Shown: positions 28,211-45,716, counted from the first letter of the stretch. The stretch: DNA of 56,298 nt from Candidatus Omnitrophota bacterium (GCA_003644385.1 QNCD01000002.1:1-56298); one strand, 5' to 3'. The notes: generated by a model not told the origin, from the letters alone. Made by a program: numbers and translations.

Positions 28211-29314
28211 TTATAATTTAACAAGTTGTAAAAGCTTTTCAGCTCTATTTAAATATGTGTGTTTCTTAATTTTTCTGTTACCACTTTGAGCAATTTTTTT
28301 TCTCTCTTCTTCATGTTCCAAATAATAAAATATCTTTTCAGCTGCATCTTTAGCATCTTTATAAATCACAAGATCCTCACCAGGAACAAACAAGTCATCA
28401 ATTTCTTTTCTATAATCAGTCATTAAGAAACCACCAGCAGCTAATATTTCATACACTCTGGGATTTAAGCTGTAAGGCTCTATTTCTTCAACTCGGCTTT
28501 CTCCAGTTTTAATATTCCTTACTATTTTTTTGGACTCATTAACTCTAAAATGATTCAATACTATTTTTGAATTAGCATAGTACCGAATAACTTCATACTT
28601 GCTCAATGTAATTGGAATATAAAAAGGTTCCAGCTGTGGACACAATCCCTTATCTATAGAAGGAAATACTCCAAAAATTTTAAAAGCCACCTTTCCTTTA
28701 ATATAAGAGACCAAATCTGTCAAGAATTCAATTCTTCCAGGCACCTCAGATCCTACAAAAAACAAATCTGGGGTATATACAATTTGTTCCCATCTTTTCA
28801 GTTCAGTTTTCCATTCATAGTGGGAGTTATAACCTACTGGCAAATAATAACTATTCGGATTAAATCTACGATATATTTTCTCACAAGCTTTATCACAAGT
28901 AAACACATAATCATATAATGGTGCTCTTTGAATTTCATGAGCAATATTATAAGGTGACTCCGTAAACCAGATAACCTGTTTCATATGAGGAAATCTCTCC
29001 TTAATCAAAGCTGGCACCCAAGCTGGTATATATTGACCTGTGATATAAATTATCAATTGTGGCCAAAGATGGACAACTGTAGTAATCAGCCCTTGGCAAG
29101 CTGCTGAATAAACATCTTTCCAAGCAACTCTATCATTAGTACCTTTTAAAAAAAATTGCACTGCCTGACGATAAAACTTCAGTCTATCCTTTAACTCAAA
29201 AGGATATACTTCTTGTCCCATCATTTTAAGAGCATCTCCCAATCCATAATAAACATCTATAGTGCTAATGCCGTGACCAGGTGAAACTAACAAAATTCTT
29301 GGCTTTTCTGCCAT
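28211..29314 (-). CDS. GT-B type glycosyltransferase (CgeB/Glyco_trans_1_2-like)
   Basis: C-terminal DAKDAAEKIFYYLEHEEERKKIAQSGNRKIKKHTYLNRAEKLL is typical of the group 1/CgeB-like glycosyltransferase C terminus. Confidence 0.55.
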   Translation of the reverse strand: MAEKPRILLVSPGHGISTIDVYYGLGDALKMMGQEVYPFELKDRLKFYRQAVQFFLKGTNDRVAWKDVYSAACQGLITTVVHLWPQLIIYITGQYIPAWVPALIKERFPHMKQVIWFTESPYNIAHEIQRAPLYDYVFTCDKACEKIYRRFNPNSYYLPVGYNSHYEWKTELKRWEQIVYTPDLFFVGSEVPGRIEFLTDLVSYIKGKVAFKIFGVFPSIDKGLCPQLEPFYIPITLSKYEVIRYYANSKIVLNHFRVNESKKIVRNIKTGESRVEEIEPYSLNPRVYEILAAGGFLMTDYRKEIDDLFVPGEDLVIYKDAKDAAEKIFYYLEHEEERKKIAQSGNRKIKKHTYLNRAEKLLQLVKL

Positions 29315-29325
29315 TTTATCCTCCT

Positions 29326-29964
29326 TTAATATCCATCAACTCTCCGCCCCAACCAGGCAAAAGCTGGTTGCCCGATCTTGTTCCTCCACTTCCTCCAACC
29401 ATATCTTACAAGTCTGGATACAATACATTCAAAATGATTATCAACTATATTTCTAAACCAGCTGTATGTTAAACTGTGTTTGTGTGCTGGATGTGGGTTA
29501 ATTATACTATTATTTATACAACAATGAACAGCTAAAAAACCTCCTGGTCTCAATATTCTCCACATTTCTTTGATAGCTTTAGTTGGATTTTCAAAATGGT
29601 CCAAAGCATTCATACACAGAACCAAATGAGCAAAGTTATCATCCAGTGGCAAATTCTCTGCTACTCCCTGAATCCAAACTATAGATGTATCTCTGGGAAT
29701 CAATTTAACATATTCGTCAATTAGAGGGTCAACAGCAACTTTCATAATAGCTTCTGGTATATATACTAAAGCTGAAATTGGTCCACTACCTACATCAACA
29801 ATTATTTTATTGTCCAATCTCAGCAGGTTAACCCCCATTTCTTCCAGCATCTTTGGATACCTAACTTTTTCTCTCTCAAGTTTTTCCCATCTTTTTTCTT
29901 CATCTGATAATAGCCAAGTTGATAATTCAGCTTTCAATATTTCATTCATTTGGCACACTCCCAA
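29326..29964 (-). CDS. class I SAM-dependent methyltransferase
   Basis: Motif I VDVGSGP, an acidic loop VAVDP, and post-II WRILRPGGFLAV. Confidence 0.8.
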   Translation of the reverse strand: MGVCQMNEILKAELSTWLLSDEEKRWEKLEREKVRYPKMLEEMGVNLLRLDNKIIVDVGSGPISALVYIPEAIMKVAVDPLIDEYVKLIPRDTSIVWIQGVAENLPLDDNFAHLVLCMNALDHFENPTKAIKEMWRILRPGGFLAVHCCINNSIINPHPAHKHSLTYSWFRNIVDNHFECIVSRLVRYGWRKWRNKIGQPAFAWLGRRVDGY

Positions 29965-30709
29965 AAATTAAAGGTTTTTTGCTAACCCCTACTTCTTTAC
30001 CTTTCCATCTCATGCTTGTAAAAGGTTCACCAAACCCAAAATTGGTCACTAAGTCTATTTTTGGCAAAGCTATCCAATACCCTTCTTTTTTTAAGTGCAT
30101 TTTGTATTCATAGTCTTCTCCAAATGCCCACGAGCCTTCAATAAAATCTCCATATTTTTCATATATCTCTCTCCTAAAAGCCATTGCTGAGCCAACCTGA
30201 TCCTCGTGAATTTCAATAGTCAAACCATCTCTGGTAACTTCTTTAACCAACATTTTTCTCCAATCACAAGGGTCATACCAATATTTGAACAATCCCAAAA
30301 CCCCAATCTCTGGAAATGTTTCAAGAATTGCCACAGCTTTTTCAAGCCACAAAGGCTTAAATTCCAAATCAGAGTCCAACTTGAACAAATATTTTCCGTG
30401 AGCACAATGGAAACCTTTATTAATTGATGCTCCTACTCCTTGATTCTTGCCTGCATTTAGAATTAAACAGCTTAATTCTTTAGCTTTATATAACCTTAAA
30501 AGAAATTCCACATTCTCCTCTTCCATCGAACCATCATCTACTATTATGAGTTCGTACGGATATTTGGTATTCTTCTTCAATGAAGCGATTGTAGTATGAA
30601 GAAACTGTGGCCTGTTAAAAGAAAGAACTACCAAACTTGCTAATGGTTTATTTCCTACTGTAATGTATGGTATTCTATTTTCTTTATCATCTAAAAATTT
30701 CTTTTGCAT
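29942..30709 (-). CDS. family 2 glycosyltransferase
   Basis: VVLSFNRPQFL ... IIVDDGS ... KLDSD, the GT-A DxD-type signature. Confidence 0.8.
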   Translation of the reverse strand: MQKKFLDDKENRIPYITVGNKPLASLVVLSFNRPQFLHTTIASLKKNTKYPYELIIVDDGSMEEENVEFLLRLYKAKELSCLILNAGKNQGVGASINKGFHCAHGKYLFKLDSDLEFKPLWLEKAVAILETFPEIGVLGLFKYWYDPCDWRKMLVKEVTRDGLTIEIHEDQVGSAMAFRREIYEKYGDFIEGSWAFGEDYEYKMHLKKEGYWIALPKIDLVTNFGFGEPFTSMRWKGKEVGVSKKPLIFGSVPNE

Positions 30710-31230
30710 TATTTAACTGCCATCAAAGTTGTAAATAAACCTTCGCCTTGAACAAAATTTTTCAATACTTCAAATCTGGCTTTAACTCCGTAAGCTTCTC
30801 TGTCTCTATTATCAGCTGAAGGCAGCCACCATGACCATAAATCTGGGTGAATTAATCTTTTGTGGTCAGGATGTGCATATGCATATTTAGATGTCCACAG
30901 AGGATTAATCATTTCTAATATGCCTTTTCTTTTCAGTACTCTCCAAATCTCCTCCATAACAAAAATCAAGTTGTTCACATGCTCCATAAAATGTGAAGCA
31001 AAAATAAAATCTATAGTACAATCTCCAAAAGGCAAACCATGTTTATCCACATCCCTAACAATATCAACTCCAGGATATTTATAATTATCAATTCCTATAA
31101 AACCAGGAGGAATTTGCCTTTTTCTATCTCCACAGCCAAGATCAACTTTCACACAATTTGGATTTGTTAATGGTAAAGCTATTGAATCACTACTTGTTAA
31201 TCTCAACTTAACTTGAATACTTTCAATCAT
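30709..31230 (-). CDS. class I SAM-dependent methyltransferase (paralogue of the MTase domains at 41..490 and 53631..54059)
   Basis: VDLGCGD, MEHV, WRVLKRKG and HPDHKR motifs are shared with the other two copies. Confidence 0.75.
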   Translation of the reverse strand: MIESIQVKLRLTSSDSIALPLTNPNCVKVDLGCGDRKRQIPPGFIGIDNYKYPGVDIVRDVDKHGLPFGDCTIDFIFASHFMEHVNNLIFVMEEIWRVLKRKGILEMINPLWTSKYAYAHPDHKRLIHPDLWSWWLPSADNRDREAYGVKARFEVLKNFVQGEGLFTTLMAVK

Positions 31231-32258
31231 AGTATGCTACAAACCCTTTTTCTATTTTTGTGTGCCCAATCCCAAATTATGTCTATTACTTGTTTTGGAT
31301 TGAGTTTTGGCTGCCAATACTTCGAGACTTTCCTGATATCACTTACATATACCAAGTGGTCAGCTGGCCTCCAATTTTGATACACCACTCTATATGGCCG
31401 TTGGTCTAAATTAGATAGATATTCCAATACTTCAATCAGTGATACAGTATTATTAGGTCCACCACCAACATTATACACTTGGCCTTTGTGTATATCTATA
31501 TCTTCAATCTCTTTCAAAAACAAATCAGCCAAATCTCCAACATATAACACATCTCTAACTTGCTTACCATCACCATAAATATTTATCACAGCATCAACCA
31601 TTTTAGCATAAACAAACCAAGATACCCACCCTTGTTCTTCTTTACCAAGCTGCCTTTCCCCAGCTATACAGCTCATCCTATTCACAACAGTAGGAACACC
31701 ATAAGTATGATAATATTCTTGGCAATATCTATCTCCTATATATTTAGAACAACCATATGGGCTATAAGCGGCTCTACCTCCAGAGTCAACTGGAAAACCT
31801 TCAGGGATACCTAAAATAAATTTTTTGTCTATCCATTTTCTCTTATTGTCAAAGATCTTAGATTGAATTTCATTTACTTCACAAGAATAAACTTTATTAG
31901 TGCTACAATAAATTACTGGTATTTTACCATTATTCTTGGCCAACTCAAGCACATTTAAAGTACCTAAAGCATTTACTTCAAAGTCATAAATGGGATCTTC
32001 AATTGAAGCTGGAACTCCTGGCTGTGCTGCTGTGTGAATAATGGCATCAACATTTTTAATTCTGGACAGCTGGTCATAATTCCTTACATCTCCCTTTATA
32101 AAAACAAAATTATGATTTTTGCTCAATTCCTCTAAGTTGCTTTCTGAGCCTTTTCTGCACAAATTGTCAAAAGCAACCACACTGTACCCTCTACTTAAAG
32201 CTTTCAATGCCACATTTGTACCAATAAAACCACAGCCACCAGTAATTAATATTAGCAT
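31227..32258 (-). CDS. NAD-dependent sugar-nucleotide epimerase (CDP-paratose 2-epimerase-like extended SDR)
   Basis: ILITGGCGFIGTNVALKALSRGYSVVAFDNLCRKGSESNLEEL closely follows the RfbE/tyvelose-epimerase N terminus. Catalytic YGCSK (YxxxK) is present. Confidence 0.7.
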   Translation of the reverse strand: MLILITGGCGFIGTNVALKALSRGYSVVAFDNLCRKGSESNLEELSKNHNFVFIKGDVRNYDQLSRIKNVDAIIHTAAQPGVPASIEDPIYDFEVNALGTLNVLELAKNNGKIPVIYCSTNKVYSCEVNEIQSKIFDNKRKWIDKKFILGIPEGFPVDSGGRAAYSPYGCSKYIGDRYCQEYYHTYGVPTVVNRMSCIAGERQLGKEEQGWVSWFVYAKMVDAVINIYGDGKQVRDVLYVGDLADLFLKEIEDIDIHKGQVYNVGGGPNNTVSLIEVLEYLSNLDQRPYRVVYQNWRPADHLVYVSDIRKVSKYWQPKLNPKQVIDIIWDWAHKNRKRVCSIL

Positions 32259-33083
32259 CTATGCTCTCCTTTCATTCTTAACATATTCTCCAATACATTC
32301 TGGAATCACTTCCTCAATATTTCTTACTTTAAAGCCCGATTGTTCAAGTTTTTGAGTGGACAAAATCAGATTAGTCCTATTAAGTCCCAATTCCTCAAAG
32401 TCAATAACTTTATATTCAAACTCTGGGTGTGCTTTTTTGTAATATTCCATTAATTGTGGGTATCTTAGCCCACCTTTATTAACAACATTATATATTCCTC
32501 TTGCATCAATTGAAATCAAATGTTCTACAGCTTTTATAAAGTCAGGGATATATGTAATAGAATTTGGAATATCTATAACTTTTTTATATTTAATTAGCTT
32601 AGTCAGAAGATTATGTGAATGAACCTTTATATCCAGAGGAATTCTAATCCTGACGATTAAAATTGGGTAACTTTTAGCTAAAACTGATAATGCCCTTTCT
32701 GCATAGATTTTGGATCTTGAATAAAAAAGCTTGAAATAATCTGGCGGTAAATTCTCTGTGATCTCAGACCCATGATAATGATAAATACAACCACTGCTAA
32801 TATGAACCATTTTAATTCCTTTCCTAATAGCAATTTCAGCTAAAATAATAGGAATTGCCACATTAGCAAATATTGTTTTATCTTTATCCAGTTCACAGTC
32901 ATCAACATTATTAACTCCTGTATAACCTATACAATTGATTATAATTGATGGTGAATACTTTTGGATCTCATTCTCAGCATCCTCAAAAGTATAAATCTTA
33001 CGATCTGATATTTCACATTGTAACCCCTCCAAAAGCCTACCGCCTATAAATCCCTTACCGATTATTAGAATTTTTTGTTTCAT
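32259..33083 (-). CDS. RmlD-like NAD(P)-dependent sugar-nucleotide 4-reductase/epimerase
   Basis: ILIIGKGFIGGRL Rossmann motif, YSRSK catalytic YxxxK, and a size of 274 aa typical of the RmlD substrate-binding family. Confidence 0.55.
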   Translation of the reverse strand: MKQKILIIGKGFIGGRLLEGLQCEISDRKIYTFEDAENEIQKYSPSIIINCIGYTGVNNVDDCELDKDKTIFANVAIPIILAEIAIRKGIKMVHISSGCIYHYHGSEITENLPPDYFKLFYSRSKIYAERALSVLAKSYPILIVRIRIPLDIKVHSHNLLTKLIKYKKVIDIPNSITYIPDFIKAVEHLISIDARGIYNVVNKGGLRYPQLMEYYKKAHPEFEYKVIDFEELGLNRTNLILSTQKLEQSGFKVRNIEEVIPECIGEYVKNERRA

Positions 33084-33570
33084 TTTCTATAACCTTTGAT
33101 GCCTCCAATAAATTTGCAGCAATTGTTGGACTTAAAGGACTCTTAACCAAAATGCTCCTGCAGCCCAAAGTATCAGCAGCTACTAAATCAGACAGACTAT
33201 CTCCTATTACATATGATTCCTTAATATCTATATTCCAATCTCTAATAGCTTTCACAAACATACCCAATTTCGGCTTTCTGTCACTACTATAATCTGGACA
33301 GACATAAATCGCATCTATAGCTATTCCAAACTTTTCAAACCCTTTTTTCAAATGCTCATGAATAGCTTTTACTTCTTGATCCGTCACTTTTCCAAGACAT
33401 ATACCAGCTTGATTTGTAACAATAATTATCAGATAACCCAATTTCTTAAGTCTTTTCAGAGCACCAATAACTCCAGGGAGGACCTTAAAATCTTCAGCCT
33501 TATTAACATATTTTCCTGGCTCAACACGATTAATCACCCCATCTCTATCTAAAAATACTGCTTTATTCAT
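33055..33570 (-). CDS. gmhB: D-glycero-D-manno-heptose 1,7-bisphosphate phosphatase (HAD, GmhB-like)
   Basis: FLDRDGVIN (HAD motif I), IVTNQAG (motif II), RKPKLGM and GDSLSDL (motifs III/IV). Confidence 0.75.
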   Translation of the reverse strand: MNKAVFLDRDGVINRVEPGKYVNKAEDFKVLPGVIGALKRLKKLGYLIIIVTNQAGICLGKVTDQEVKAIHEHLKKGFEKFGIAIDAIYVCPDYSSDRKPKLGMFVKAIRDWNIDIKESYVIGDSLSDLVAADTLGCRSILVKSPLSPTIAANLLEASKVIENETKNSNNR

Positions 33571-33571
33571 T

Positions 33572-34108
33572 TTATTCTCTGTCCTTCAAATAATTTGAAA
33601 TTGCATGCGCTATGGCAAGATGTATATCTTCTACCATTTCATAGCTCTTTAAACCAATCCCTAAATACTTATCGCAATATTCAGCTACCTGTCCACTACC
33701 CGAAAAACCCAACAAAGCAAATACAGTCATTCCAATCTTTTTAGCAACTTTTGCTGCTTCAACCAAATTCTTCGAATTACCAGAAACTGAAATTATAACC
33801 AATATATCTTGGTCAGTACCAAACAATTTCAGCTGCTCTGAATAACTTTTTGAAAAATCTATATCATTTGACAAAGCTGTTACCAAGCCTGAATTGTCAA
33901 CCAGCGAGATAGCTCTAATACCACAGTTCTTCGCCAAGTCAGTAGCGAAATGGCTCGCAGTTTCAGCAGATCCACCATTCCCAACAATATATATTTTACC
34001 TTCACATATTTTCATATACTCAGCCATATAGCCAATATCATCTATATAATCAGCAATTGACTCCAAGAAATAAGCTGTCAAATGAGCAAAATAATCATCA
34101 ATTTTCAT
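33572..34108 (-). CDS. gmhA: phosphoheptose (sedoheptulose-7-phosphate) isomerase, SIS domain
   Basis: GNGGSAETASHFATDL, SNDIDF, ISVSGNSKN and EDIHLAIAH align with conserved GmhA blocks. Confidence 0.85.
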   Translation of the reverse strand: MKIDDYFAHLTAYFLESIADYIDDIGYMAEYMKICEGKIYIVGNGGSAETASHFATDLAKNCGIRAISLVDNSGLVTALSNDIDFSKSYSEQLKLFGTDQDILVIISVSGNSKNLVEAAKVAKKIGMTVFALLGFSGSGQVAEYCDKYLGIGLKSYEMVEDIHLAIAHAISNYLKDRE

Positions 34109-35034
34109 GTTATTCCCAAAACCTCCCTCTTAATCCATTCAGCTGTCAGTCTAATTGCCTCCTCTGGTGGTACTTTTGGATTATAACCCAGCACTCTTCT
34201 TGCTTTTTCATTGGAAAATAGCTCCCTCTGTCCAAACTCACCAGGTCTATAAGGCTTTTCAATAATTGGCACTCTTTTCCCGCAAGCTTTCATGCACAAC
34301 TCAGCTATATCTCTCACTTTCAGCTCTTGACCATAGCTAACCTGAAATTTTTCTCCGACCACTTTTTCCTTTGGTGCTTGAATAGCTAACTCCCAAGCGT
34401 CCAAAACATCATCAACATAAGTAGTATCTCTTGTTTGGTCGCCTCCTTCCAGAATTATTGGTTTATTTCTCAAAATATTATAAATCCATTTGAATACAAA
34501 AATTTCCCTTCTCATGCCAGGACCACAAATATATCCATTACTCATCACCACAATTGGAACCTTATAACTCCTATACCACGCCCAACAAGCCAACTCCTGT
34601 GCACATTTACTCCAGGAATAAGGATTGTGTGGCATTAAGGGATGATCTTCATCTATAGGTAAATACAATGGTCTACCCCATTCATTTCCACTGCCAGCAT
34701 ATATTAATTTCTCAATTTTGACTTTTCTGGCTGCTTCCAACAATGCCACTGTACCCATAGCATTTTCCCAAGCAGTCCAGACTGGAGAAGGAAAGCCCAT
34801 TGGCACATCCGCTTGTGCACAGAAGTGAACAACAATATCATGGCCTTCAATATCTTCAGGTTGAATATCATGAACAGCTTTCCACAAATAATTTAGTTTT
34901 GGATTATCAATATCTAAACCTGAATGCAAAGGAGCCACAATATCCAGAGCTGTTACTTCATAACCTTTTTTCAGCAGCCTCTTAGTTAACCCAGATCCAC
35001 CAAAACCAGCTGCTCCAGTAATTAGTACTTTCAA
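34105..35034 (-). CDS. NAD-dependent sugar-nucleotide epimerase/dehydratase (extended SDR)
   Basis: VLITGAAGFGGSGL Rossmann motif and YSWSK catalytic YxxxK. Embedded within the heptose pathway genes. Confidence 0.75.
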   Translation of the reverse strand: MKVLITGAAGFGGSGLTKRLLKKGYEVTALDIVAPLHSGLDIDNPKLNYLWKAVHDIQPEDIEGHDIVVHFCAQADVPMGFPSPVWTAWENAMGTVALLEAARKVKIEKLIYAGSGNEWGRPLYLPIDEDHPLMPHNPYSWSKCAQELACWAWYRSYKVPIVVMSNGYICGPGMRREIFVFKWIYNILRNKPIILEGGDQTRDTTYVDDVLDAWELAIQAPKEKVVGEKFQVSYGQELKVRDIAELCMKACGKRVPIIEKPYRPGEFGQRELFSNEKARRVLGYNPKVPPEEAIRLTAEWIKREVLGIT

Positions 35035-35045
35035 GGTATACCTCC

Positions 35046-38637: not shown

Positions 38638-39465
38638 TTAATGCCTCCTTTTATGTTTGTTATCTATATATTTTATATTTTTCTTCAAACTTTCTATGTT
38701 TGCTTCTTGATTTCTTTCATGCCAAATATGCCAACCCATCACCTCATCTGTAAAAATGAACTCATATCCAAGTTCGTCAATCGTTTGACCTAAATCATTG
38801 TCCTCTCCCCCATGCCCAACGATATTTTCATCAAAACCTCCTGCTTGCAAGAACGCATCTTTAGGTATTAAAACATTACCACCAAATAAAGCACCACCAG
38901 ATCCTGAAACTGGTCTCCTTGATGGATTGTCTCTATACCTTTTATCTCTTTCAAATAACGACTGTCTTATATCAGCACCAATTAATTCACCCTTAGGAAT
39001 ATATTGAACATTTACCCTATTGCTTACCACCAAATCAAACCTAAATAATATATCCTCCAAAGTAAGTTTCATTGGTAATAAAAAATCATATCTACCACAA
39101 ATAACACAATTCGGAAATTGTGTGTGTAGCTTATGGTAAGTAGCCAACCAATTATCTCTAACGATAATATCAGAATCCATAAATATTATTGCATCAGAAT
39201 TTTCGTCCATCAATTCAACACCTCTATTACGAGCTTGACCTGCTCTAAACCCTTTATCTGGTTGCCAAAAATATTTAATATTAAAATCAAGATTAGCAAA
39301 TTTCTGCACAATAGAAAGAATGTTATCCTGAGAGCCATCATCACATACAATCACCTCAAACTTATCATGCCTAAACTTCTGCTTAAATATACAAGTCAAA
39401 CAGCACTCCAATCCGAACATTCTATTATATACTGGTATCACAATGGAGTATTCAATCAACACCAA
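38638..39465 (-). CDS. family 2 glycosyltransferase with galactosyltransferase-like C-terminal region
   Basis: SIVIPVYNR ... VIVCDDGSQD ... MDSD ... GHGGEDNDLG. Paralogue of 39452..40369. Confidence 0.8.
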   Translation of the reverse strand: MVLIEYSIVIPVYNRMFGLECCLTCIFKQKFRHDKFEVIVCDDGSQDNILSIVQKFANLDFNIKYFWQPDKGFRAGQARNRGVELMDENSDAIIFMDSDIIVRDNWLATYHKLHTQFPNCVICGRYDFLLPMKLTLEDILFRFDLVVSNRVNVQYIPKGELIGADIRQSLFERDKRYRDNPSRRPVSGSGGALFGGNVLIPKDAFLQAGGFDENIVGHGGEDNDLGQTIDELGYEFIFTDEVMGWHIWHERNQEANIESLKKNIKYIDNKHKRRH

Positions 39466-40369
39466 GCTCCTTTCTTTTTTCAGAAGAAATAAATGTCCCT
39501 TTGTCGCAGTAAATCATGTTTTTCTCTGGCTCCGCAATAATTCCATATTTAATGTGCAAATCTCGATACTTATTTTCTATGTACTTAATGTTCTTTTTAA
39601 CATCCTGCTCATTCTGAGCTTGATTCCTCGGATGCCAGATATGCCAGCCGATCACGTCTTCTGAAAACAATGCTTTTGCTCCTCTTCTGAACAACTCCCA
39701 TCCTAAACAGCAATCTTCTCCTCCGTGTCCTTTTATATTCGCATCAAAACCTCCTGCTTCCAAAAAAAGCTTTTTAGGGATTAGCAAATTACCCCCAAAC
39801 ATCCCCAAAGCAAAAGGTTTACCTGTAACTGGCGATAAACTACTCGGCTCTTTCCAAAATTTTGTCTTTTCATCTTGCCACCTTGGGTCAATTCCTGGTA
39901 GTGGACCAGCAGAGATAGGAGCTACTTGTGGAAACTGATTACTTACTACTTTATCAAATTGATTTGCAACTAATTCTTCAGTTATATTCATAGGCATCAA
40001 CCAATCATATCTGCCACAAATTATTGTCTCAGGATATAAACTGTGTAACTTATCATAGGCTTTCAAAGCATTAGGATTAAGAATCACATCTGAATCCACG
40101 AATATCAGAGCTTCTCCAATAGCAATTTTGCTTGCCAGATTTTTTGCTGGACCTGGATTACCTGTTTTGCCTATTCTCCATAGATACTTTATATTCATTA
40201 TAGTTGAATACTTCTGAGCTATCTTCACAGCAGGGTCTGTACCTTCATCGCTAATAATGACTTCCCAAAATTCTGTAGGGAAGGTTTGTTTTGCTAAAGC
40301 CATTAAACAACATGATAAATTCTGATGTCTATTATAGGTAGGAATTATAATAGAAAATTTAATTGACAT
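39452..40369 (-). CDS. family 2 glycosyltransferase with galactosyltransferase-like C-terminal region
   Basis: SIIIPTYNR ... VDSD ... GHGGEDCCLG ... KKNIKYIENKY. Paralogue of 38638..39465. Confidence 0.8.
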   Translation of the reverse strand: MSIKFSIIIPTYNRHQNLSCCLMALAKQTFPTEFWEVIISDEGTDPAVKIAQKYSTIMNIKYLWRIGKTGNPGPAKNLASKIAIGEALIFVDSDVILNPNALKAYDKLHSLYPETIICGRYDWLMPMNITEELVANQFDKVVSNQFPQVAPISAGPLPGIDPRWQDEKTKFWKEPSSLSPVTGKPFALGMFGGNLLIPKKLFLEAGGFDANIKGHGGEDCCLGWELFRRGAKALFSEDVIGWHIWHPRNQAQNEQDVKKNIKYIENKYRDLHIKYGIIAEPEKNMIYCDKGTFISSEKRKELGVD

Positions 40370-40384
40370 ATTTTACTCCTTATA

Positions 40385-42049
40385 TCAATCTGCGATATAA
40401 CTGACGCCATAAGGGCCGTCAAGAAAACAACTTGGTTTAAAACATTTATCACTCAAAGCCTCATAACCTACCAAACACCACTCTTTAGTCCTACCCCAAA
40501 CTCTTGGTATATCTTTTAAGTGAGCCAATGGCTCTCTTTCGTGACAAATTGAAACCATTAAATCAGTATTAACCACAAGCGATTTCCTATAAGCTTCGCA
40601 AGGTTTATGAACACCTTCCCTCAAAAAATGAGGCAGAGCAAAAACAAATTTGTCAAATGATTTCATGTAGTCAGGAGCACTGTTCATTATCTTTTCAAAT
40701 TTATCAATCTTCTCGCTCGTCCACTTACCCAATACTTTACCGCCAAAATAACTTCCACTTACCCCTGCTCTTATACAGAAAGTAATTCCTAATTTCTGGA
40801 CCAAATCAATTAAATATGGCAACTCATCAACTGTATCTGGATATACAGTAATACTAATTCCACATTTCCTTGGCCAAATAGTATTCACAATTCTGACAGT
40901 CTCAACCGCTTGCTGAAAAGTTCCCTTAACTCCTCTCAGCTCATCATGAACCTCTTCACTACCATCTATAGAAACCCTTACAACAAAATTGCCTCTTAAA
41001 TTATTAGCAATTGTTTCCCAAATTTTTCTCTGATTTTCAGGTAGAGTTCCATTCGTAATTATACCAATTTCAGCACCTTTCCATCTATCTGCACAGATAG
41101 CAATTAAATCTACAATTTTATGGAATAAGGTTGGCTCTCCCCCAAAAATTGCAATATTATTTATATTATTAAAAAATTCATGTGAGATCCACTTCTGAAA
41201 TTCATGTATATTAATTTCTTCTTCCGATTGTTTTTTCCATATATCACAATGCTTACACATTAAATTACACCTCCAAGTAGCAGCGACAGCCATCCAAAAT
41301 GGAGTAATAACATCCAATCTTCTATGATGAATCCATTTATCCTTAAACAAAGTCTTATTCTCAGCTTCATGTAGAAATCTACCTTCAGAAGCAAAACGAT
41401 GATGCAGTATTACAGCTTCTGCACAATAATAAATTCTAAAGCCTGCTTCCCTTGCCCTTAAACAAAAATCTACATCTTCCCAACCATTAATAAATTCTTC
41501 ACAGAAACCACCAAGCCTTTCAAATACATCTTTTTTCACCAGCATACAAGCCGCAGTCACAGCCTCAGCTTCTCTGCTTTTATTACAACTATAATCATCT
41601 GCCGGTCTTCCCTGACCATACTCATAAGGATATCCAGAAGCTGCCATGAACTTAATTCCTGCATGCTGTATATATTTACCATCAATTGTCAGCAATTTGG
41701 CACCAACTATTGGAGATCTGAAATAATTATCCTCAGCTATTTTCAGCATATATTCCAAAAATCCCTTTTGTGGCTCTGTATCATTATTAAGAAATAGTAC
41801 ATATTCAGCTTCTAAACTCTTAGCACCTCTATTACAGCTTTTAGCAAAACCAACATTTGCTTCATTCCTAACATAATTAATTCCTGAATGTCTTTCTGCC
41901 CATTTATCAGTGCCATCTATAGAGCCATCATCTACCAAAGTTAATTTCCAATTTATCTTATTCGATATATTCTCTTTTAAACATCTCCATAAAGGATCTA
42001 AAAACTTCTTGCCATTATAAGTTGGCACAACAATATTTACTTTATACAT
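40385..42049 (-). CDS. family 2 glycosyltransferase fused to a radical SAM domain
   Basis: N-terminal VNIVVPTYNG ... LVDDGSIDGT ... NNDT ... GWEDVDFC (GT-A). C-terminal half has CNLMCKHC (CxxxCxxC, nt 41246-41269), IFGGEPTL and ITNGTL radical SAM motifs, plus C-terminal cysteines. Confidence 0.8.
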   Translation of the reverse strand: MYKVNIVVPTYNGKKFLDPLWRCLKENISNKINWKLTLVDDGSIDGTDKWAERHSGINYVRNEANVGFAKSCNRGAKSLEAEYVLFLNNDTEPQKGFLEYMLKIAEDNYFRSPIVGAKLLTIDGKYIQHAGIKFMAASGYPYEYGQGRPADDYSCNKSREAEAVTAACMLVKKDVFERLGGFCEEFINGWEDVDFCLRAREAGFRIYYCAEAVILHHRFASEGRFLHEAENKTLFKDKWIHHRRLDVITPFWMAVAATWRCNLMCKHCDIWKKQSEEEINIHEFQKWISHEFFNNINNIAIFGGEPTLFHKIVDLIAICADRWKGAEIGIITNGTLPENQRKIWETIANNLRGNFVVRVSIDGSEEVHDELRGVKGTFQQAVETVRIVNTIWPRKCGISITVYPDTVDELPYLIDLVQKLGITFCIRAGVSGSYFGGKVLGKWTSEKIDKFEKIMNSAPDYMKSFDKFVFALPHFLREGVHKPCEAYRKSLVVNTDLMVSICHEREPLAHLKDIPRVWGRTKEWCLVGYEALSDKCFKPSCFLDGPYGVSYIAD

Positions 42050-42666
42050 ATAACAGCCTCCAACTGTGCTCTTCTCTTATTTCCAGAAGCAAAAGCATTA
42101 TCCTGCAATTTAAATTCAATAATTTCTTTATCAGCAAATACTTCTCTAAATATCTTCCTCCACCAATTGATATTATAACAACTCACATGTGTAGGATCTT
42201 GTGGTTCATTAGGAAAATGTTTAGCTATACTTCCATAATTCTTATCAAATACTGTAATACCATGATATATATATTTATCACTCACTCTCCTACACTCAAT
42301 CAGACACCTTAATATCTCTTCAGATTTTAAGTGTTCCAAAAAATCCCAAGAAAATACTAAATCAAAATAACAATCCTCAAATATCCCCAGCTCAGTTGCA
42401 TCTCCTTGCATAATATATTTTTTCATTTCAGGATGACAATTAGCTACAGCATATTCAGATATATCAACCCCATATGCCTCAACTCCAATCATTCTCATCG
42501 CTTGAACCAAAAAACCTTTTGCACATCCTAATTCTAAAAATTTGAATATCTTAAATCTTCTTATTAATTGTTTAGCTATCTCAATATAACCATCATGCCA
42601 ATAATACAAACCATAGCCCTTCCTATTATCATATTTAGGATCTTTATAAGCTCTGGGATCTCGCAT
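42037..42666 (-). CDS. class I SAM-dependent methyltransferase
   Basis: Motif I LELGCAKGFLV, acidic loop GVDIS, and FSWDFLEHL. The true N terminus is uncertain (see the finding at 42681..42755). Confidence 0.75.
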   Translation of the reverse strand: MRDPRAYKDPKYDNRKGYGLYYWHDGYIEIAKQLIRRFKIFKFLELGCAKGFLVQAMRMIGVEAYGVDISEYAVANCHPEMKKYIMQGDATELGIFEDCYFDLVFSWDFLEHLKSEEILRCLIECRRVSDKYIYHGITVFDKNYGSIAKHFPNEPQDPTHVSCYNINWWRKIFREVFADKEIIEFKLQDNAFASGNKRRAQLEAVICIK

Positions 42667-42777
42667 TCCATCAAAATAGTTTATATCAATCCAATTAGAT
42701 AAATCCTCAGGTCTCTCTCTGCTCTTTCTGGATTACCTGGAATGAATACTGGCATAAACTACTCCTTTTTATGAATT

Positions 42778-43317
42778 TTATGAATTACTATTTATAAATT
42801 TTTTAGTTTTATCTTTTAAAACTTCCCAATATCCATCAATCATGCTTCTAAATTTCCTTACTATATCCTCTTCTGTTTCTCCACCCAGAGGTGTAATATT
42901 ACCTAATTCAATATCAGCAACAACTAATTCAGAACCCGCATCAGGATTGCCACTATTATCAAAACCTTTATAGATCTGAATTCCATGTTTATTACCAACC
43001 TTAGAAGACAGAATCACTCTCCTCACAAGCTCTGGTAGCTCTCTTTGCTGAGAATAAGTCTGACAATAAACTCCAATAGTAAAATTAAATCTCGCTAATC
43101 TTGATTCTGTGCCTTCATAATCAGGCTGAACATTCACATCATGTTCTTCTAAGTAAGAATGAATAAGAATGAAAGGTAATGCTAAATCTGAAAGATTTAA
43201 ATCAGGATGACTGATATAAATTCTATCATCAAAATCACTTTCCAAATCTGCTGAGCTTCTTAAGAAGTATACCAAACTATTATAAAAAGCTTCTCCAAGG
43301 TTATTGACTAAAGACAT
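42778..43317 (-). CDS. hypothetical structural protein (possible tail terminator/neck protein) stranded between sugar genes
   Basis: 179 aa with no enzyme motif. The ALPFILIHSY... layout is faintly reminiscent of DUF3168-type tail-completion proteins. Expected position between the gp10-like protein and the tube. Confidence 0.3.
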   Translation of the reverse strand: MSLVNNLGEAFYNSLVYFLRSSADLESDFDDRIYISHPDLNLSDLALPFILIHSYLEEHDVNVQPDYEGTESRLARFNFTIGVYCQTYSQQRELPELVRRVILSSKVGNKHGIQIYKGFDNSGNPDAGSELVVADIELGNITPLGGETEEDIVRKFRSMIDGYWEVLKDKTKKFINSNS

Positions 43318-44056
43318 CTTTAATTCCCTGTTTTTTACTATTGTTTAATCTTATTTTTCTTTCATAAAAATGCTGACTACTCTTAAAAAGGGAAATAAAA
43401 GTCCCCGCATCGCTCCAGAATCCATCAAGTATTCTATATGTTAAACGGTGATGAACAAGGTAGTACCGATTAGTATCAGTAATTTCTAACTCTCCTCTAT
43501 CTGAATATTCTTGGCTTCTAATTACATCAAAAACTTCACAATCATATAGATAGAAACCTGTTACCGCTAAGTCACTGATAAACTTCTTAGGTTTTTCAAT
43601 AATCCTCATTACTTTGCTATCTCTAATTTCAGCTACTCCAAATCTCTGGGGATCGCTAACTTTCTTCAGAAAAATCTTAGCCCCTCCAGTAAAATCAAGA
43701 ACATCAGACTTGAAATCCTCTTCAAAAATATTATCTCCCAAAATTACTGCAACATTATCATTCTGAACAAAACCTTCAGCTAACAATAGTGCCTCAGCAA
43801 TTCCTCCCGCTTGGTCTTGGACTTTATAAGTAAACTCTACTCCAAAGTCTTTTCCGCTTCCCAAAGTCTGGATAACTGCTCCCATATGTTCCCTGCCAGT
43901 AACAATCAGAATTTCTCTAATCCCTGAATTAATTAAAGTTTCCAGAGGATAGAATATCATTGGTTTATTGAACACTGGTAGAAGATGTTTATTCGTTACC
44001 TTAGTGCAAGGATAAAGCCTCGTTCCTTTACCACCTGCAAGCAATACTCCTTTCAT
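43301..44056 (-). CDS. rmlA: glucose-1-phosphate thymidylyltransferase-like sugar nucleotidyltransferase
   Basis: MKGVLLAGGKGTRLYPCT, ILGDNIF, EKPK and GFWSDAGT blocks of RmlA-type enzymes (short form). Confidence 0.8.
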   Translation of the reverse strand: MKGVLLAGGKGTRLYPCTKVTNKHLLPVFNKPMIFYPLETLINSGIREILIVTGREHMGAVIQTLGSGKDFGVEFTYKVQDQAGGIAEALLLAEGFVQNDNVAVILGDNIFEEDFKSDVLDFTGGAKIFLKKVSDPQRFGVAEIRDSKVMRIIEKPKKFISDLAVTGFYLYDCEVFDVIRSQEYSDRGELEITDTNRYYLVHHRLTYRILDGFWSDAGTFISLFKSSQHFYERKIRLNNSKKQGIKDVFSQ

Positions 44057-45051
44057 TTATCATCCTCTCTAAGTTTTAATTTCTTCCACCACCACTCATT
44101 ATTAATATACCAATTAATGGTTTTATTCAAATTTGTTTCTAAATTATCTTTTATTTCAAAACCTAATTCAGTAATTTTTTTACAATCAACTGCATATCTC
44201 CTATCATGCCCAGGTCTATCAGGAACAAATTCTATAAAGTACTCATAGTCAAGCGCCATATTCTCAATTATAAACTTGATTAATTCATAGTTAGTCACAT
44301 CATCATATAAAGAGCCTATATTATATATTTCTCCAAATTTCCCTTCGTGAAGAAGAAGGTCTATAGCTTTACAATTATCTTCTACAAATATCCAGTTTCG
44401 TATTTGGTCTCCTTTCCCATAGATAGGCACTTTTTTATTTTCGAGTAAATTTGTTATTGCGAGAGGAATTAGCTTCTCAGGATACTGATAAGGTCCAAAG
44501 TTATTAGTACTCCTGCTGATAATATATTTAAGTCCATAAGTTCTTCCGTAAGCTTGTACTAACAAATCCGCTCCTGCTTTACTTGCTGAATAAGGAGAAG
44601 AAGGCTTTAAAAGGGAATTTTCGTCCGCAAACCCATCAAGCACTTCTCCATATACTTCATCTGTACTAATCTGAAAAAACTTACAATCATGCTGAACTGC
44701 ATAGTCAAGAAGTTTCTGCACTCCTAAATAATTGCTTTTTATAAAAGGGGAAGAATCTCTTATACTTCTGTCAACATGACTTTCAGCAGCAAAGTTGACT
44801 ATCCAATCAGGAGGATCCAAAGGGAAATCCTGGATATCACATATGTCCATTTTAATAAAAATATAATTAGGATTATTTTCAATATCCTTCAAATTATCAG
44901 GATTGCCTGAGTAGGTGAGTTTATCTAAATTGTAAACTTTATAGGTAGGATAGCTTTTAAGAATATGACGGATAAAATTAGACCCAATAAACCCACATCC
45001 CCCAGTAATTAATAATTTTACACTCAAATCTACCTCCTTTTCAATTACCAC
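44053..45051 (-). CDS. rmlB: dTDP-glucose 4,6-dehydratase
   Basis: LLITGGCGFIGSNFIRHIL, NLDKLTYSGN, STDEVYG, YSASKAGADLLV and GHDRRYA match conserved RmlB blocks. Confidence 0.85.
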   Translation of the reverse strand: MVIEKEVDLSVKLLITGGCGFIGSNFIRHILKSYPTYKVYNLDKLTYSGNPDNLKDIENNPNYIFIKMDICDIQDFPLDPPDWIVNFAAESHVDRSIRDSSPFIKSNYLGVQKLLDYAVQHDCKFFQISTDEVYGEVLDGFADENSLLKPSSPYSASKAGADLLVQAYGRTYGLKYIISRSTNNFGPYQYPEKLIPLAITNLLENKKVPIYGKGDQIRNWIFVEDNCKAIDLLLHEGKFGEIYNIGSLYDDVTNYELIKFIIENMALDYEYFIEFVPDRPGHDRRYAVDCKKITELGFEIKDNLETNLNKTINWYINNEWWWKKLKLREDDK

Positions 45052-45714: not shown

Positions 45715-45716
45715 TT

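What the first reader, a model, noticed from the sequence alone, without database searches (positions are those of the whole stretch)
28211..45051. A ~16.8-kb nucleotide-sugar biosynthesis and glycosyltransferase island embedded inside the virion structural operon
Seen: about 20 co-directional, tightly packed genes (roughly 30% of the window) lie between the head-tail joining genes (45310..46705) and the tail tube gene (27781..28179). They include seven glycosyltransferases: one GT-B/CgeB-like, five GT2, and one GT2-radical SAM fusion. There are three class I methyltransferases, a full GDP-heptose pathway, rmlA/rmlB and three further SDR epimerase/reductase/dehydratase-type enzymes. No flippase, polymerase (Wzy/Wzx), chain-length or ABC-export gene was recognised. 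Established: temperate phages commonly carry one to three O-antigen-modifying genes near their attachment sites. Separately, some mycobacteriophages have been reported to glycosylate capsid and tail-tube proteins using glycosyltransferase genes located in the structural module. Inference: four things favour a cytoplasmic, phage-directed glycosylation of virion proteins with a complex methylated, heptose/6-deoxyhexose-containing glycan: the scale, the self-sufficient precursor supply, the lack of export machinery, and the late-operon position between head and tail genes. Candidate acceptors include the Thr/Pro tract GTTPTPLPTT at 48103..48408, AATTTATVT at 47057..47602, and the Ser-rich acidic fibre proteins. 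Alternatives are remodelling of host surface glycan for superinfection exclusion, or sugar decoration of DNA. An island of this size in this position would be exceptional for a phage.
Basis: partly seen in the sequence, partly recalled or inferred. Interest (0 to 1): 0.85.

Follow-up and report, generated by a model that had tools for sequence, protein, structure and literature searches.

The report
Glycan factory inside phage structural operon
A lineage of uncultured tailed phages, several of them from marine sediment, carries a 17-kb block of 21 genes between its neck and tail-tube genes that makes rhamnose and heptose sugar donors and encodes seven sugar-transferring enzymes but no export machinery, most likely to coat its own particles with a complex sugar, on a scale not described for tailed phages.

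Summary
Window 28211..45051 (- strand) holds 21 tightly packed genes:
- seven glycosyltransferases: one CgeB-like GT-B, five GT2 and one GT2-radical-SAM fusion
- three methyltransferases
- RmlA and RmlB, plus a plant/giant-virus-type 3,5-epimerase/4-reductase that completes L-rhamnose synthesis
- a GmhA/HddA/GmhB/HddC-like heptose set
- two further SDR enzymes

None of the 21 has a convincing membrane-spanning segment or an export-type domain.

The block is not an assembly chimera. Its composition matches the rest of the phage. Both junctions recur in at least 12 independent assemblies, whose capsid or tail-tube proteins are 55-100% identical to the window's. In those relatives rmlB always lies within about 1.1 kb downstream of the neck genes (directly in the closest ones). 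The CgeB-like transferase always sits directly before the tail-tube gene.

In relatives, homing endonucleases and one intein interrupt the block. Full-length homologues of the GT2-radical-SAM fusion were found only in this lineage.

The most likely role is cytoplasmic glycosylation of virion proteins with a methylated rhamnose/heptose glycan (confidence about 0.5). Modification of host envelope precursors or of DNA remains possible.

Novelty: a new variant of a known kind.

The parts
45310..45714 (-). Neck1 / tail-completion protein (HK97 gp10-like). It marks the upstream structural boundary.
   Evidence: PF04883 E=1.5e-4; phrog_5 E=7e-13. Orthologues precede the sugar genes in L007-L010.
45045..45308 (-). 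87-aa protein with a C-terminal membrane segment (XhlA/hemolysin-like). It lies between the neck gene and rmlB and is the only protein in the region with a clear membrane segment.
   Evidence: phrog_937 E=9e-5. Hydrophobic segment at residues 62-87. Homologues in L007 and L009 lie between neck and rmlB; L004's homologue precedes its rmlB-like gene.
44053..45051 (-). RmlB, dTDP-glucose 4,6-dehydratase
   Evidence: TIGR01181 413 bits against a cut-off of 365; PF16363 E=8e-64.
43301..44056 (-). RmlA-like glucose-1-phosphate thymidylyltransferase (short form)
   Evidence: PF00483 E=2e-53. TIGR01207 230 bits, the best hit but below the cut-off.
42778..43317 (-). 179-aa ORF restricted to this lineage and always placed between rmlA and the GT2-rSAM gene. 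Function unknown. It may be the missing fourth neck protein (tail terminator); this was not tested.
   Evidence: No Pfam, NCBIfam, PHROG or PDB hit. Only 11 relatives among 1.84 billion representative proteins. AF2 pLDDT 41, unusable.
42037..42666 (-). Class I SAM methyltransferase (209 aa). Absent from the sister contig.
   Evidence: PF08241 E=1e-13. Homologues in L007 and L009, none in L002/L003.
40385..42049 (-). GT2 (GT-A) fused to a radical-SAM domain that carries extra C-terminal cysteines
   Evidence: PF00535 E=3e-21 and PF04055 E=1e-17. C261/C265/C268 and C484/C502/C525/C536/C541 are invariant in 14 homologues. AF2 pLDDT 79.6. Foldseek: ppGalNAc-T2/K4CP for the GT half; SkfB, SuiB and BlsE for the rSAM half.
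39452..40369 (-). GT2 glycosyltransferase with a Glyco_transf_7C-type C-terminal motif
   Evidence: PF00535 E=3e-16.
38638..39465 (-). GT2 glycosyltransferase similar to the N-terminal domain of chondroitin polymerase K4CP
   Evidence: PF00535 E=4e-22; PDB 2z87 E=5e-32.
38344..38637 (-). 97-aa ORF of unknown function
   Evidence: No Pfam hit; only weak PHROG hits.
37550..38347 (-). GT2 glycosyltransferase
   Evidence: PF00535 E=1e-21.
36726..37571 (-). GT2 glycosyltransferase
   Evidence: PF00535 E=5e-15.
36048..36725 (-). Sugar-1-phosphate nucleotidyltransferase (HddC-like or MurU-like)
   Evidence: PF00483 E=4e-26. NCBIfam: MurU 129 bits, HddC 117 bits, both below cut-off.
35046..36020 (-). 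GHMP kinase, HddA-like (heptose-7-phosphate kinase)
   Evidence: PF00288 and PF08544. NF049969 E=2e-44, the best hit but below the cut-off.
34105..35034 (-). Extended SDR epimerase/dehydratase (309 aa); substrate unresolved
   Evidence: PF01370 E=2e-40. Best PDB hits are various NDP-sugar epimerases and dehydratases at about 1e-29.
33572..34108 (-). SIS-domain isomerase, GmhA-like (sedoheptulose-7-phosphate isomerase)
   Evidence: PF13580 E=2e-16. TIGR00441 and NF010546 E about 1e-25, below cut-off.
33055..33570 (-). HAD-IIIA phosphatase, GmhB-like
   Evidence: NF006506 E=1e-41 (142 bits against 178). TIGR01656 and TIGR01662 pass their cut-offs.
32259..33083 (-). Bifunctional NDP-4-keto-6-deoxyglucose 3,5-epimerase/4-reductase (plant NRS/ER and Mimivirus L780 type). 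It completes L-rhamnose synthesis.
   Evidence: PDB 4qqr E=3e-29, 7jid E=2e-16. The GCI(Y/F), YSxxK and (I/L)TK motifs align.
31227..32258 (-). CDP-tyvelose 2-epimerase-like SDR (an NDP-sugar C2 epimerase)
   Evidence: PDB 9rl0 E=1e-71 and 1orr E=2e-64, both full length.
30709..31230 (-). Class I SAM methyltransferase (173 aa)
   Evidence: PF08241 E=4e-8.
29942..30709 (-). GT2 glycosyltransferase
   Evidence: PF00535 E=5e-27. 63-75% identical orthologues in L014 and L019.
29326..29964 (-). Class I SAM methyltransferase (212 aa)
   Evidence: PF08241 E=8e-14.
28211..29314 (-). CgeB-like GT-B glycosyltransferase. It lies immediately upstream of the tail-tube gene in every relative examined.
   Evidence: PF13524 E=2e-27 and PF12996. 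The adjacency is seen in L012, L013, L014/15, L017, L018, L019, L021 and L022.
27781..28179 (-). Major tail (tube) protein. It marks the downstream structural boundary.
   Evidence: phrog_1407 E=7e-12. It is followed by a chaperone (phrog_344) and the tape-measure gene.

Best explanation
The block is a phage-owned, self-contained cytoplasmic glycosylation system, probably expressed with the structural genes.

Shown by sequence:
- RmlA and RmlB make dTDP-4-keto-6-deoxyglucose. A single plant/giant-virus-type 3,5-epimerase/4-reductase would convert this to NDP-L-rhamnose.
- A GmhA/HddA/GmhB/HddC-like set would make an NDP-(probably GDP-)glycero-manno-heptose from sedoheptulose-7-phosphate.
- A tyvelose-epimerase-like C2 epimerase and a further SDR enzyme would tailor a sugar donor.

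Inferred:
- Seven soluble glycosyltransferases build an oligosaccharide step by step, directly on an acceptor inside the cell.
- Three SAM methyltransferases O-methylate it.
- The radical-SAM domain fused to one GT2 performs an unknown radical step, either on the sugar (as BlsE does) or on the acceptor protein (as SkfB and SuiB do).
- The acceptor is most likely one or more virion proteins, so progeny particles leave the cell coated with a methylated rhamnose/heptose glycan. That coat could give shielding, stability or adhesion.
For: 1. Domain content and pathway completeness.
2. No convincing membrane segment or export domain in any island protein.
3. Tight co-directional packing between the neck and tail-tube genes, with overlapping stop and start codons and no excess of promoter-like or terminator-like sites.
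4. Composition indistinguishable from the rest of the phage: tetranucleotide r 0.92-0.95, codon-usage r 0.94.
5. Fixed position across the lineage. The rmlB-rmlA-179aa module lies within about 1.1 kb downstream of Neck1 in L007-L010 and in the sister contig; the GT2-rSAM gene follows it in all of these except L007. The methyltransferase-CgeB-GT pair lies directly before the tail-tube gene in 8 of 8 loci that have upstream sequence. These include Loki's Castle sediment assemblies.
6. Homing endonucleases lie between island genes in relatives, and one GT2-rSAM homologue carries an intein. This fits conserved, core-like genes.
7. The GT-A half of the fusion superposes on polypeptide GalNAc-transferases. 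The last GT belongs to the Glyco_trans_1_2/DUF3880 (CgeB) family, whose namesake acts in spore-surface glycosylation (the CgeB role is from my own knowledge).
8. Precedents exist. Mycobacteriophages glycosylate the C-termini of capsid and tail-tube subunits with tandem phage glycosyltransferases placed after an O-methyltransferase gene (PMC11600133, PMC12619734, PMC12363180). Giant viruses carry clustered sugar-donor and transferase genes for virion glycans, including the L780-type rhamnose synthase (PMC9614988).
Against: - No acceptor was identified. The capsid, decoration and tail-tube proteins have no hydroxyl-rich extension. The conserved 101-aa protein keeps only two invariant Thr in its tract.
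- Late co-transcription is inferred from gene order only.
- The GT2 folds resemble sugar-to-sugar and teichoic-acid transferases (K4CP, TarS, RmlT) as well as they resemble protein transferases.
- The genome is incomplete: the sister contig extends at least 9.8 kb beyond the window. DNA-modification genes could lie outside the window.
- The host is unknown.
Confidence: 0.5

Rival explanations
1. The enzymes remodel host envelope glycopolymers on the cytoplasmic face, for example lipid-linked O-antigen or capsule units, or teichoic-acid-type chains. Host machinery then exports the products. The effect would be to block superinfection or to stop progeny from re-adsorbing to debris.
For: - The GT2 folds match TarS and RmlT (wall-teichoic-acid glycosyltransferases) and K4CP.
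- Rhamnose and heptose are typical envelope sugars.
- Other authors have read single glycosyltransferases in phage structural modules this way (PMC8008677, PMC11946311).
- Lack of the phage's own exporters does not exclude use of the host's exporters.
- An 87-aa membrane-anchored protein adjoins the block.
Against: - No priming polyprenyl-phosphate transferase, flippase, polymerase, ligase or GtrABC-type gene is present.
- No integrase or lysogeny gene was recognised among the ORFs scanned in the window. No prophage copy was found in 185,579 species-representative genomes.
- The fixed position between neck and tail-tube genes, and the density of homing endonucleases, point to a core virion-associated function rather than a moron.
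- Seven transferases plus two donor pathways is far more than known phage serotype-conversion modules carry.
Confidence: 0.2
2. The block hypermodifies phage DNA with sugars to evade restriction or CRISPR.
For: - Phage DNA glycosylation is well established, and diverse glycans on DNA have been reported (cited in PMC12619734 and PMC9614988).
- The window encodes a dUTPase_2-NT5C fusion that could reshape nucleotide pools.
- The genome is incomplete, so a hydroxymethylase could lie outside the window.
Against: - No pyrimidine hydroxymethylase or thymidylate-synthase-like gene appears among the window ORFs scanned.
- The block sits in the structural array, not the replication or nucleotide module.
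- A methylated multi-sugar glycan built by seven enzymes, with heptose, would be unprecedented on DNA.
Confidence: 0.07
3. The products are attached to a small peptide, lipid or metabolite, or released as a free glycan. An example would be a mycofactocin-like or glycocin-like glycosylated, radical-SAM-modified peptide acting on the host or on competitors.
For: - The best NCBIfam hit of the GT half is the mycofactocin glycosyltransferase MftF. The rSAM half groups with SPASM/twitch peptide maturases.
- A methyltransferase lies adjacent to the fusion gene.
- The window holds two further radical-SAM genes next to repeat-rich small proteins.
Against: - All of these scores are far below family cut-offs.
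- No precursor-peptide gene is evident inside the island.
- No relative of one of the extra radical-SAM genes was found in the viral collection, although the island-bearing sister contig is in that collection.
- The capsid C-terminal Tyr, a possible MftA-like site, is followed by an extra residue in 5 of 14 relatives.
Confidence: 0.08
4. The block is host DNA joined to phage DNA by mis-assembly.
For: None beyond the bacterial appearance of the genes.
Against: - Composition is identical to the rest of the phage.
- Both junctions are reproduced in many independent assemblies from different studies.
- Structural and sugar genes overlap or abut by 1-31 nt.
Confidence: 0.01

Closest known systems
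Mycobacteriophage virion O-glycosylation (Che8, Corndog, Myrna; Freeman et al. 2023, as summarised in PMC11600133, PMC12619734 and PMC12363180)
   Same: Both are tailed phages that encode their own glycosyltransferases together with an O-methyltransferase. In the mycobacteriophages these enzymes modify capsid and tail-tube proteins in the cytoplasm without export machinery.
   Different: - The mycobacteriophage systems have about 2-4 genes and, as far as the summaries state, no sugar-donor pathways.
- This block has 21 genes, with complete rhamnose and heptose donor routes, seven transferases, three methyltransferases and a radical-SAM fusion.
- Two signature transferases (CgeB-like GT, GT2-rSAM) gave no mycobacteriophage hits in tblastn.
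- The capsid and tube C-termini here are not obviously acceptor-like.
- Glycosylation is not demonstrated here.
Giant-virus autonomous glycosylation clusters (Mimivirus 9-12-gene fibril cluster; chlorovirus capsid glycans; PMC9614988)
   Same: Both have clustered viral genes for nucleotide-sugar synthesis plus several soluble transferases. Both use rhamnose made by a bifunctional 3,5-epimerase/4-reductase of the L780 type. Both include methylated sugars, and in both the glycogenes are compositionally like the core genes.
   Different: - Those viruses are eukaryote-infecting nucleocytoplasmic large DNA viruses whose genes have individual promoters.
- This is a tailed phage with an HK97-type capsid, and the genes form an operon-like array inside the neck-to-tail gene order.
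- The heptose pathway and the GT2-rSAM fusion were not seen in the parts of that review I read.
Bacterial O-antigen, capsule and S-layer-glycan loci (for example heptose- and rhamnose-containing S-layer glycans, PMC2943079)
   Same: The enzyme families are the same: RmlA/B, GmhA/HddA/GmhB/HddC, GT2, GT-B and O-methyltransferases.
   Different: This block has no priming transferase, no Wzx/Wzy or ABC exporter, and no ligase or oligosaccharyltransferase. It is located in a phage structural operon. Rhamnose synthesis uses a fused epimerase/reductase instead of RmlC plus RmlD.
Bacillus spore-surface glycosylation (CgeB, SpsA-L; from my own knowledge)
   Same: In both, a CgeB-family GT-B acts with GT2 enzymes and rhamnose donor genes on a protein shell assembled inside a cell.
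   Different: The resemblance rests only on Pfam family membership (PF13524/PF12996). No spore context is present and orthology was not tested.

Membership tests
Phage virion glycosylation system (mycobacteriophage type) | Phage-encoded glycosyltransferase(s) with an O-methyltransferase, encoded with or next to the virion structure genes | tested here: met
   Seven GTs and three MTases lie between the Neck1 and major tail genes.
Phage virion glycosylation system (mycobacteriophage type) | Glycans covalently attached to capsid and tail-tube subunits (at their C-termini) | not testable with these tools
   This needs mass spectrometry of virions. By sequence, the MCP and tube C-termini are conserved and not Ser/Thr-rich.
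Phage virion glycosylation system (mycobacteriophage type) | Sequence homology of the transferases to the mycobacteriophage enzymes | tested here: not met
   tblastn of the CgeB-like GT and the GT2-rSAM fusion against 50,697 phage records gave no mycobacteriophage hits at E<=1e-3.
Giant-virus type autonomous glycosylation cluster | Virus-encoded nucleotide-sugar pathways clustered with several soluble GTs | tested here: met
Giant-virus type autonomous glycosylation cluster | Bifunctional UGER-type rhamnose synthase | tested here: met
   The 274-aa SDR matches 4qqr at 3e-29 and Mimivirus L780 (7jid) at 2e-16, with aligned catalytic motifs. Activity was not tested.
Giant-virus type autonomous glycosylation cluster | The virus is a nucleocytoplasmic large DNA virus of eukaryotes | tested here: not met
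   HK97-type capsid (PF25209 in relatives), tape-measure protein, tail chaperone and M15 endolysin.
Bacterial surface-polysaccharide locus (Wzx/Wzy or ABC type) | Priming polyprenyl-phosphate glycosyltransferase | tested here: not met
   No such Pfam domain and no multi-pass membrane protein in the block.
Bacterial surface-polysaccharide locus (Wzx/Wzy or ABC type) | Flippase/polymerase or ABC exporter, and a chain-length regulator | tested here: not met
   None was found by Pfam or by the hydropathy scan.
Phage serotype-conversion module (GtrABC and relatives) | GtrA flippase, a membrane-bound GtrB and GtrC, carried by a temperate phage near att/int | tested here: not met
   No convincing membrane GTs. 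No integrase among the window ORFs scanned. No prophage copy in species-representative genomes.
Phage DNA glycosylation | A base-hydroxymethylating enzyme supplying the sugar acceptor | tested here: inconclusive
   None among the window ORFs scanned. The genome extends beyond the window.
dTDP-L-rhamnose pathway (RmlABCD) | RmlA, RmlB, RmlC and RmlD all present | tested here: not met
   RmlB passes its equivalog cut-off. For RmlA the family is the best hit but below cut-off. No RmlC cupin is present. RmlC and RmlD are functionally replaced by one NRS/ER-type enzyme.
GDP-D-glycero-alpha-D-manno-heptose pathway | GmhA, HddA, GmhB and HddC | tested here: inconclusive
   All four enzyme types are adjacent, and these families are the best or near-best NCBIfam hits. 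Each scores below the equivalog cut-off, and the transferase scores slightly higher for MurU. The GDP nucleotide is inferred.
SPASM/twitch radical-SAM enzymes | A CxxxCxxC cluster plus C-terminal auxiliary-cluster cysteines | tested here: met
   C261/265/268 and five C-terminal Cys are invariant in 14 homologues. The fold matches SkfB, SuiB and BlsE. No specific subfamily cut-off is reached.

The most novel reading that the evidence does not exclude
A lineage of uncultured tailed phages, several from sediment, builds a complex O-methylated rhamnose/heptose glycan on its own virion proteins using a fully phage-encoded pathway. This would be the first self-sufficient virion glycosylation system in a tailed phage. 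It would include a lineage-specific enzyme in which a radical-SAM domain is fused to the transferase and creates a sugar or a protein-glycan linkage of a kind not yet described.
Probability: 0.3. Interest if true: 0.88.

Novelty: new variant of a known kind. Interest (0 to 1): 0.74.

Why it matters
Until now, virion glycosylation by phage-encoded enzymes has been documented only in a few mycobacteriophages with two to four genes. Autonomous glycosylation with the virus's own sugar-donor pathways has been regarded as a hallmark of giant eukaryotic viruses.

A phage of at least about 66 kb (the two overlapping contigs joined; it could be larger) that devotes about 17 kb of its structural gene array to such a system would do three things, given that the block is kept at the same place across a diverse lineage that includes marine-sediment phages:
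- It would extend that capability to tailed phages.
- It would suggest that glycan coats are under strong selection in these phages' environments.
- It would supply a compact set of soluble enzymes (an NRS/ER-type rhamnose synthase, a heptose pathway, and a GT2-radical-SAM fusion) for glycoengineering and for enzymology of a new radical-SAM/glycosyltransferase pairing.

It also makes a concrete question testable: what do the sugar genes in phage structural modules modify?

Tried and rejected
1. Assembly chimera or recent host DNA was rejected (and the junction replication).
2. I first read the low identity of the GT2-rSAM gene in the sister contig as diversifying selection on glycan structure. 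That gene is 76.5% identical in nucleotides, against 92-96% in the flanks. The extra sister ORFs proved to be NUMOD3/HNH homing endonucleases, not transferases. Endonuclease-linked gene conversion therefore explains the mosaic, and I dropped that argument.
3. The 179-aa ORF as an RmlC-like enzyme or a tail terminator could not be tested. There was no family, PDB or PHROG hit. AF2 gave pLDDT 41, too low for a fold search.
4. A mycofactocin-like modification of the capsid's C-terminal Tyr was weakened, because 5 of 14 relatives have a residue after the Tyr.
5. The 181-aa protein is not conserved across the lineage. The Thr/Pro tract is only partly conserved. No relative of the radical-SAM gene next to the acidic proteins was found in the viral collection.
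6. Host identification failed. There were no tRNAs, no match in deposited phages and no prophage in GTDB representative genomes. Only the sediment origin of some relatives was established.
7. Freeman 2023 and Pyle 2024 could not be read. Facts about them come from papers that cite them.
8. Promoter and terminator scans were uninformative, with counts at the level expected by chance.

Full report
**Observation.** All long ORFs of the window are on the - strand. GC content (0.31-0.40) and GC skew vary smoothly, with no break at the proposed island.

- a Glyco_trans_1_2/DUF3880 (CgeB-family) GT-B at 28211-29314
- GT2 enzymes at 29942-30709, 36726-37571, 37550-38347, 38638-39465 and 39452-40369
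- a GT2 + Radical_SAM fusion at 40385-42049
- class I methyltransferases at 29326-29964, 30709-31230 and 42037-42666
- a SIS isomerase, a GHMP kinase, a HAD phosphatase and a nucleotidyltransferase
- RmlA-like and RmlB enzymes
- three SDR enzymes

Two ORFs (179 aa at 42778-43317 and 97 aa at 38344-38637) have no recognisable domain.

The flanks are as described. A Neck1/HK97-gp10-like gene lies at 45310-45714. The major tail protein lies at 27781-28179, followed by a chaperone and a 1288-aa tape-measure protein. The capsid gene is at 48704-49657.

The span is 16,841 bp, 29.9% of the window. Neighbouring genes overlap or are separated by at most 31 nt, with one 111-nt gap.

A hydropathy scan finds no convincing membrane segment in any island protein: it flags only one short borderline stretch in the GT2 at 37550-38347. 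The one clear segment in the region is in the 87-aa tail-anchored ORF at 45045-45308, between Neck1 and rmlB. Together with Pfam, this confirms the absence of a flippase, polymerase, ABC exporter or priming transferase.

**Refinement of the pathways.** NCBIfam places RmlB above its equivalog cut-off. RmlA, HddA, GmhA, GmhB and HddC/MurU are the best hits for their ORFs but score below cut-off.

Searches against PDB sequences sharpen the picture for the three SDR enzymes:
- The 274-aa 'RmlD-like' protein is closest to the Arabidopsis 3,5-epimerase/4-reductase (4qqr, 3e-29) and to Mimivirus L780 UDP-L-rhamnose synthase (7jid, 2e-16). The GCI(Y/F), YSxxK and (I/L)TK motifs align. According to PMC9614988, this single-protein epimerase/reductase is the plant and giant-virus solution, whereas bacteria use RmlC plus RmlD. 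L780 accepts both dTDP- and UDP-linked substrates. The L-rhamnose route is therefore complete without an RmlC.
- The 343-aa SDR is a full-length relative of CDP-tyvelose 2-epimerase (1e-71).
- The 309-aa SDR is a generic extended epimerase/dehydratase.

The predicted building blocks are therefore L-rhamnose, a glycero-manno-heptose (with GDP inferred as the nucleotide), possibly epimerised or deoxygenated derivatives, and O-methyl groups.

**Not a chimera, and not a recent acquisition.** Tetranucleotide frequencies of the island correlate with the tail, head and replication regions (r 0.92-0.95) as well as those regions correlate with each other. Codon usage agrees equally well.

Both junctions recur in independent assemblies.
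- A sister contig (IMGVR_UViG_3300033156_001123) is about 95% identical in nucleotides across the region.
- Capsid relatives at 65-71% identity come from four other samples (JGI 3300033149 and 3300022538; SRR14872662 and SRR22388187). Downstream of their neck genes, within about 1.1 kb, all carry rmlB, rmlA and the 179-aa ORF. In three of the four these are followed by GT2-rSAM and GT2 genes; L007 instead carries a methyltransferase and Csf1/Csf3/ParB-like genes within the retrieved stretch.
- A more divergent relative (ENA, 86-kb contig) also has sugar-related genes there.
- Anchoring on the tail-tube protein gave eight loci with upstream sequence, at 55-99% identity. They include IMG/VR contigs and Loki's Castle deep-sea sediment assemblies SDBU and SDBV.
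- In all eight, the CgeB-like GT lies directly before the tube gene. A methyltransferase lies upstream of the GT in seven of the eight. In the longer loci that is preceded by GT2, methyltransferase, tyvelose-epimerase-like and heptose genes.

The block is therefore an old, vertically inherited part of this lineage's structural gene array.

**Variation within the block.** Most of the extra ORFs in relatives are NUMOD3, HNH or LAGLIDADG homing endonucleases, and a few are further methyltransferases. One GT2-rSAM homologue carries an intein.

In the sister contig the GT2-rSAM gene is only 76.5% identical in nucleotides, against 92-96% in the flanks. It lies next to a NUMOD3 endonuclease, and the 209-aa methyltransferase is missing. 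I attribute this mosaic to endonuclease-associated gene conversion, not to selection on glycan structure. The density of selfish endonucleases fits genes that are conserved among co-infecting relatives.

**The GT2-radical-SAM fusion.** Among 5.8 billion clustered proteins, only 14 full-length homologues were found (58-95% identity). Those traceable to long contigs lie on contigs of this phage lineage. All other hits cover only the GT2 half.

The CxxxCxxC motif and five C-terminal cysteines are invariant. The AlphaFold model is usable, with pLDDT 79.6.
- The GT half superposes on polypeptide GalNAc-transferases, chondroitin polymerase K4CP, TarS and RmlT.
- The radical-SAM half superposes on the peptide maturases SkfB and SuiB, and on the sugar-nucleoside enzyme BlsE (TM 0.71).
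- No viral predicted structure matches both halves.
- No deposited phage record has a full-length match.

The chemistry of this enzyme is therefore open. It could act on a sugar or on a protein.

**Target.** The evidence favouring virion proteins is circumstantial. It consists of the fixed position between neck and tube genes, the soluble enzymes, the lack of any export or lipid-priming step, and the core-like conservation. There are also precedents in mycobacteriophages (PMC11600133, PMC12619734, PMC12363180) and in giant viruses (PMC9614988).

I could not identify an acceptor.
- The capsid and tube C-termini are conserved and not hydroxyl-rich.
- The decoration protein has a conserved Ser/Thr/Tyr-containing C-terminal stretch, but nothing distinctive.
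- In the conserved 101-aa protein only two Thr of the tract are invariant.
- The 181-aa protein has homologues only in the sister contig.
- No relative of the radical-SAM gene next to the acidic repeat proteins was found in the viral collection that holds the sister contig. The equivalent region of that contig was not retrieved.

Rival targets are not excluded.
- Host envelope precursors modified on the cytoplasmic face are compatible with the TarS-, RmlT- and K4CP-like folds.
- DNA modification cannot be ruled out because the genome is incomplete. The sister contig extends at least 9.8 kb beyond the window's right end, with no match to the window's left end.
- No hydroxymethylase was recognised among the window ORFs scanned. 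No integrase was recognised either.
- No prophage copy exists in GTDB representative genomes.
- An M15 peptidase at 12225-12614 suggests a bacterial host with peptidoglycan.

**Comparison and verdict.** Functionally, the block looks like a tailed-phage counterpart of the giant-virus glycosylation clusters, and a greatly expanded version of the mycobacteriophage system. It is not a member of either by homology or by virus type, and it fails the defining features of bacterial export-type polysaccharide loci and of Gtr-type conversion modules.

Single glycosyltransferases in phage structural modules have been noted before and interpreted in different ways (PMC8008677, PMC11946311). In the literature and databases available here I found no description of a block of this size and self-sufficiency.

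I rate it a new variant of a known kind. Virion glycosylation is the best-supported mechanism, at a confidence of about 0.5.

Noticed in passing
window 14599-18139 (- strand): Two small acidic proteins (164 and 131 aa) share an M[GA]FSWT N-terminus and have C-terminal tracts of Y-D-S, G-Y-D and F-D-S triplets. Two radical-SAM genes (443 and 441 aa) follow immediately. The second has a Cys-rich SPASM-like end and a weak match to the RiPP maturase CteB (5wgg, 3e-5). The arrangement looks like a repeat protein plus two maturases, as in the His-Xaa-Ser or cyclophane systems. No relative of the 443-aa gene was found in the viral collection that holds the sister contig.
   Followed up: partly
window 51855-54665 (- strand); L007 417-5219; L009 2939-7492: A 936-aa protein just upstream of the prohead protease combines a SAM methyltransferase domain with an ATP-dependent DNA-ligase-type nucleotidyltransferase domain. 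In one relative it is fused to a metallo-beta-lactamase/Apyc1-like domain, giving a 1600-aa protein.
   Followed up: no
relatives: L008 12797-13666; L009 14995-15627; L010 13846-14553 and 16697-17602; L003 11665-12558; L012 8129-8827; L013, L014, L019; protein P0035: Relatives have a high density of NUMOD3, HNH and LAGLIDADG homing endonuclease genes between the sugar genes. One GT2-rSAM homologue contains an intein. The window's own island has none.
   Followed up: yes
window 42778-43317; protein P0161: The central part (residues about 75-147) of the 179-aa lineage-specific ORF matches nine repeated stretches in one 2627-aa metagenomic protein. This suggests a structural or binding domain rather than an enzyme. 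A fourth neck protein (tail terminator) is otherwise missing from the gene order.
   Followed up: partly
window 47057-48100 (- strand) against L003 4354-5391: The 163-aa ORF, which has a signal-peptide-like N-terminus, and the 181-aa ORF are a single 345-aa ORF in the near-identical sister contig. Neither has homologues in more distant relatives.
   Followed up: no
window right end (about 56298) against L023 1-9800: The sister contig continues for at least 9.8 kb beyond the window's right end. That stretch has ORFs of 479 and 467 aa, which may be terminase and portal, and has no similarity to the window's left end. The window is therefore a fragment of a genome of at least about 66 kb, possibly 75 kb or more. 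The sister also has a 1.4-kb insertion at window position 55015/55016.
   Followed up: partly
window 1626-2549 (- strand): A dUTPase_2 (MazG-like) domain is fused to an NT5C 5'-deoxynucleotidase. This is a possible nucleotide-pool manipulation gene.
   Followed up: no
L007 18401-20981: In one relative (JGI 3300033149), the stretch after rmlB, rmlA, the 179-aa homologue and a methyltransferase contains proteins that hit the new Pfam families Csf1 (PF27781) and Csf3 (PF27782) and a ParB_N protein, instead of the GT2-rSAM gene.
   Followed up: no
window 23946-24877 (within the tape-measure gene): Offset self-similar matches at about 120-nt steps between the window and the sister contig indicate a tandem repeat array inside the tape-measure protein.
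   Followed up: no
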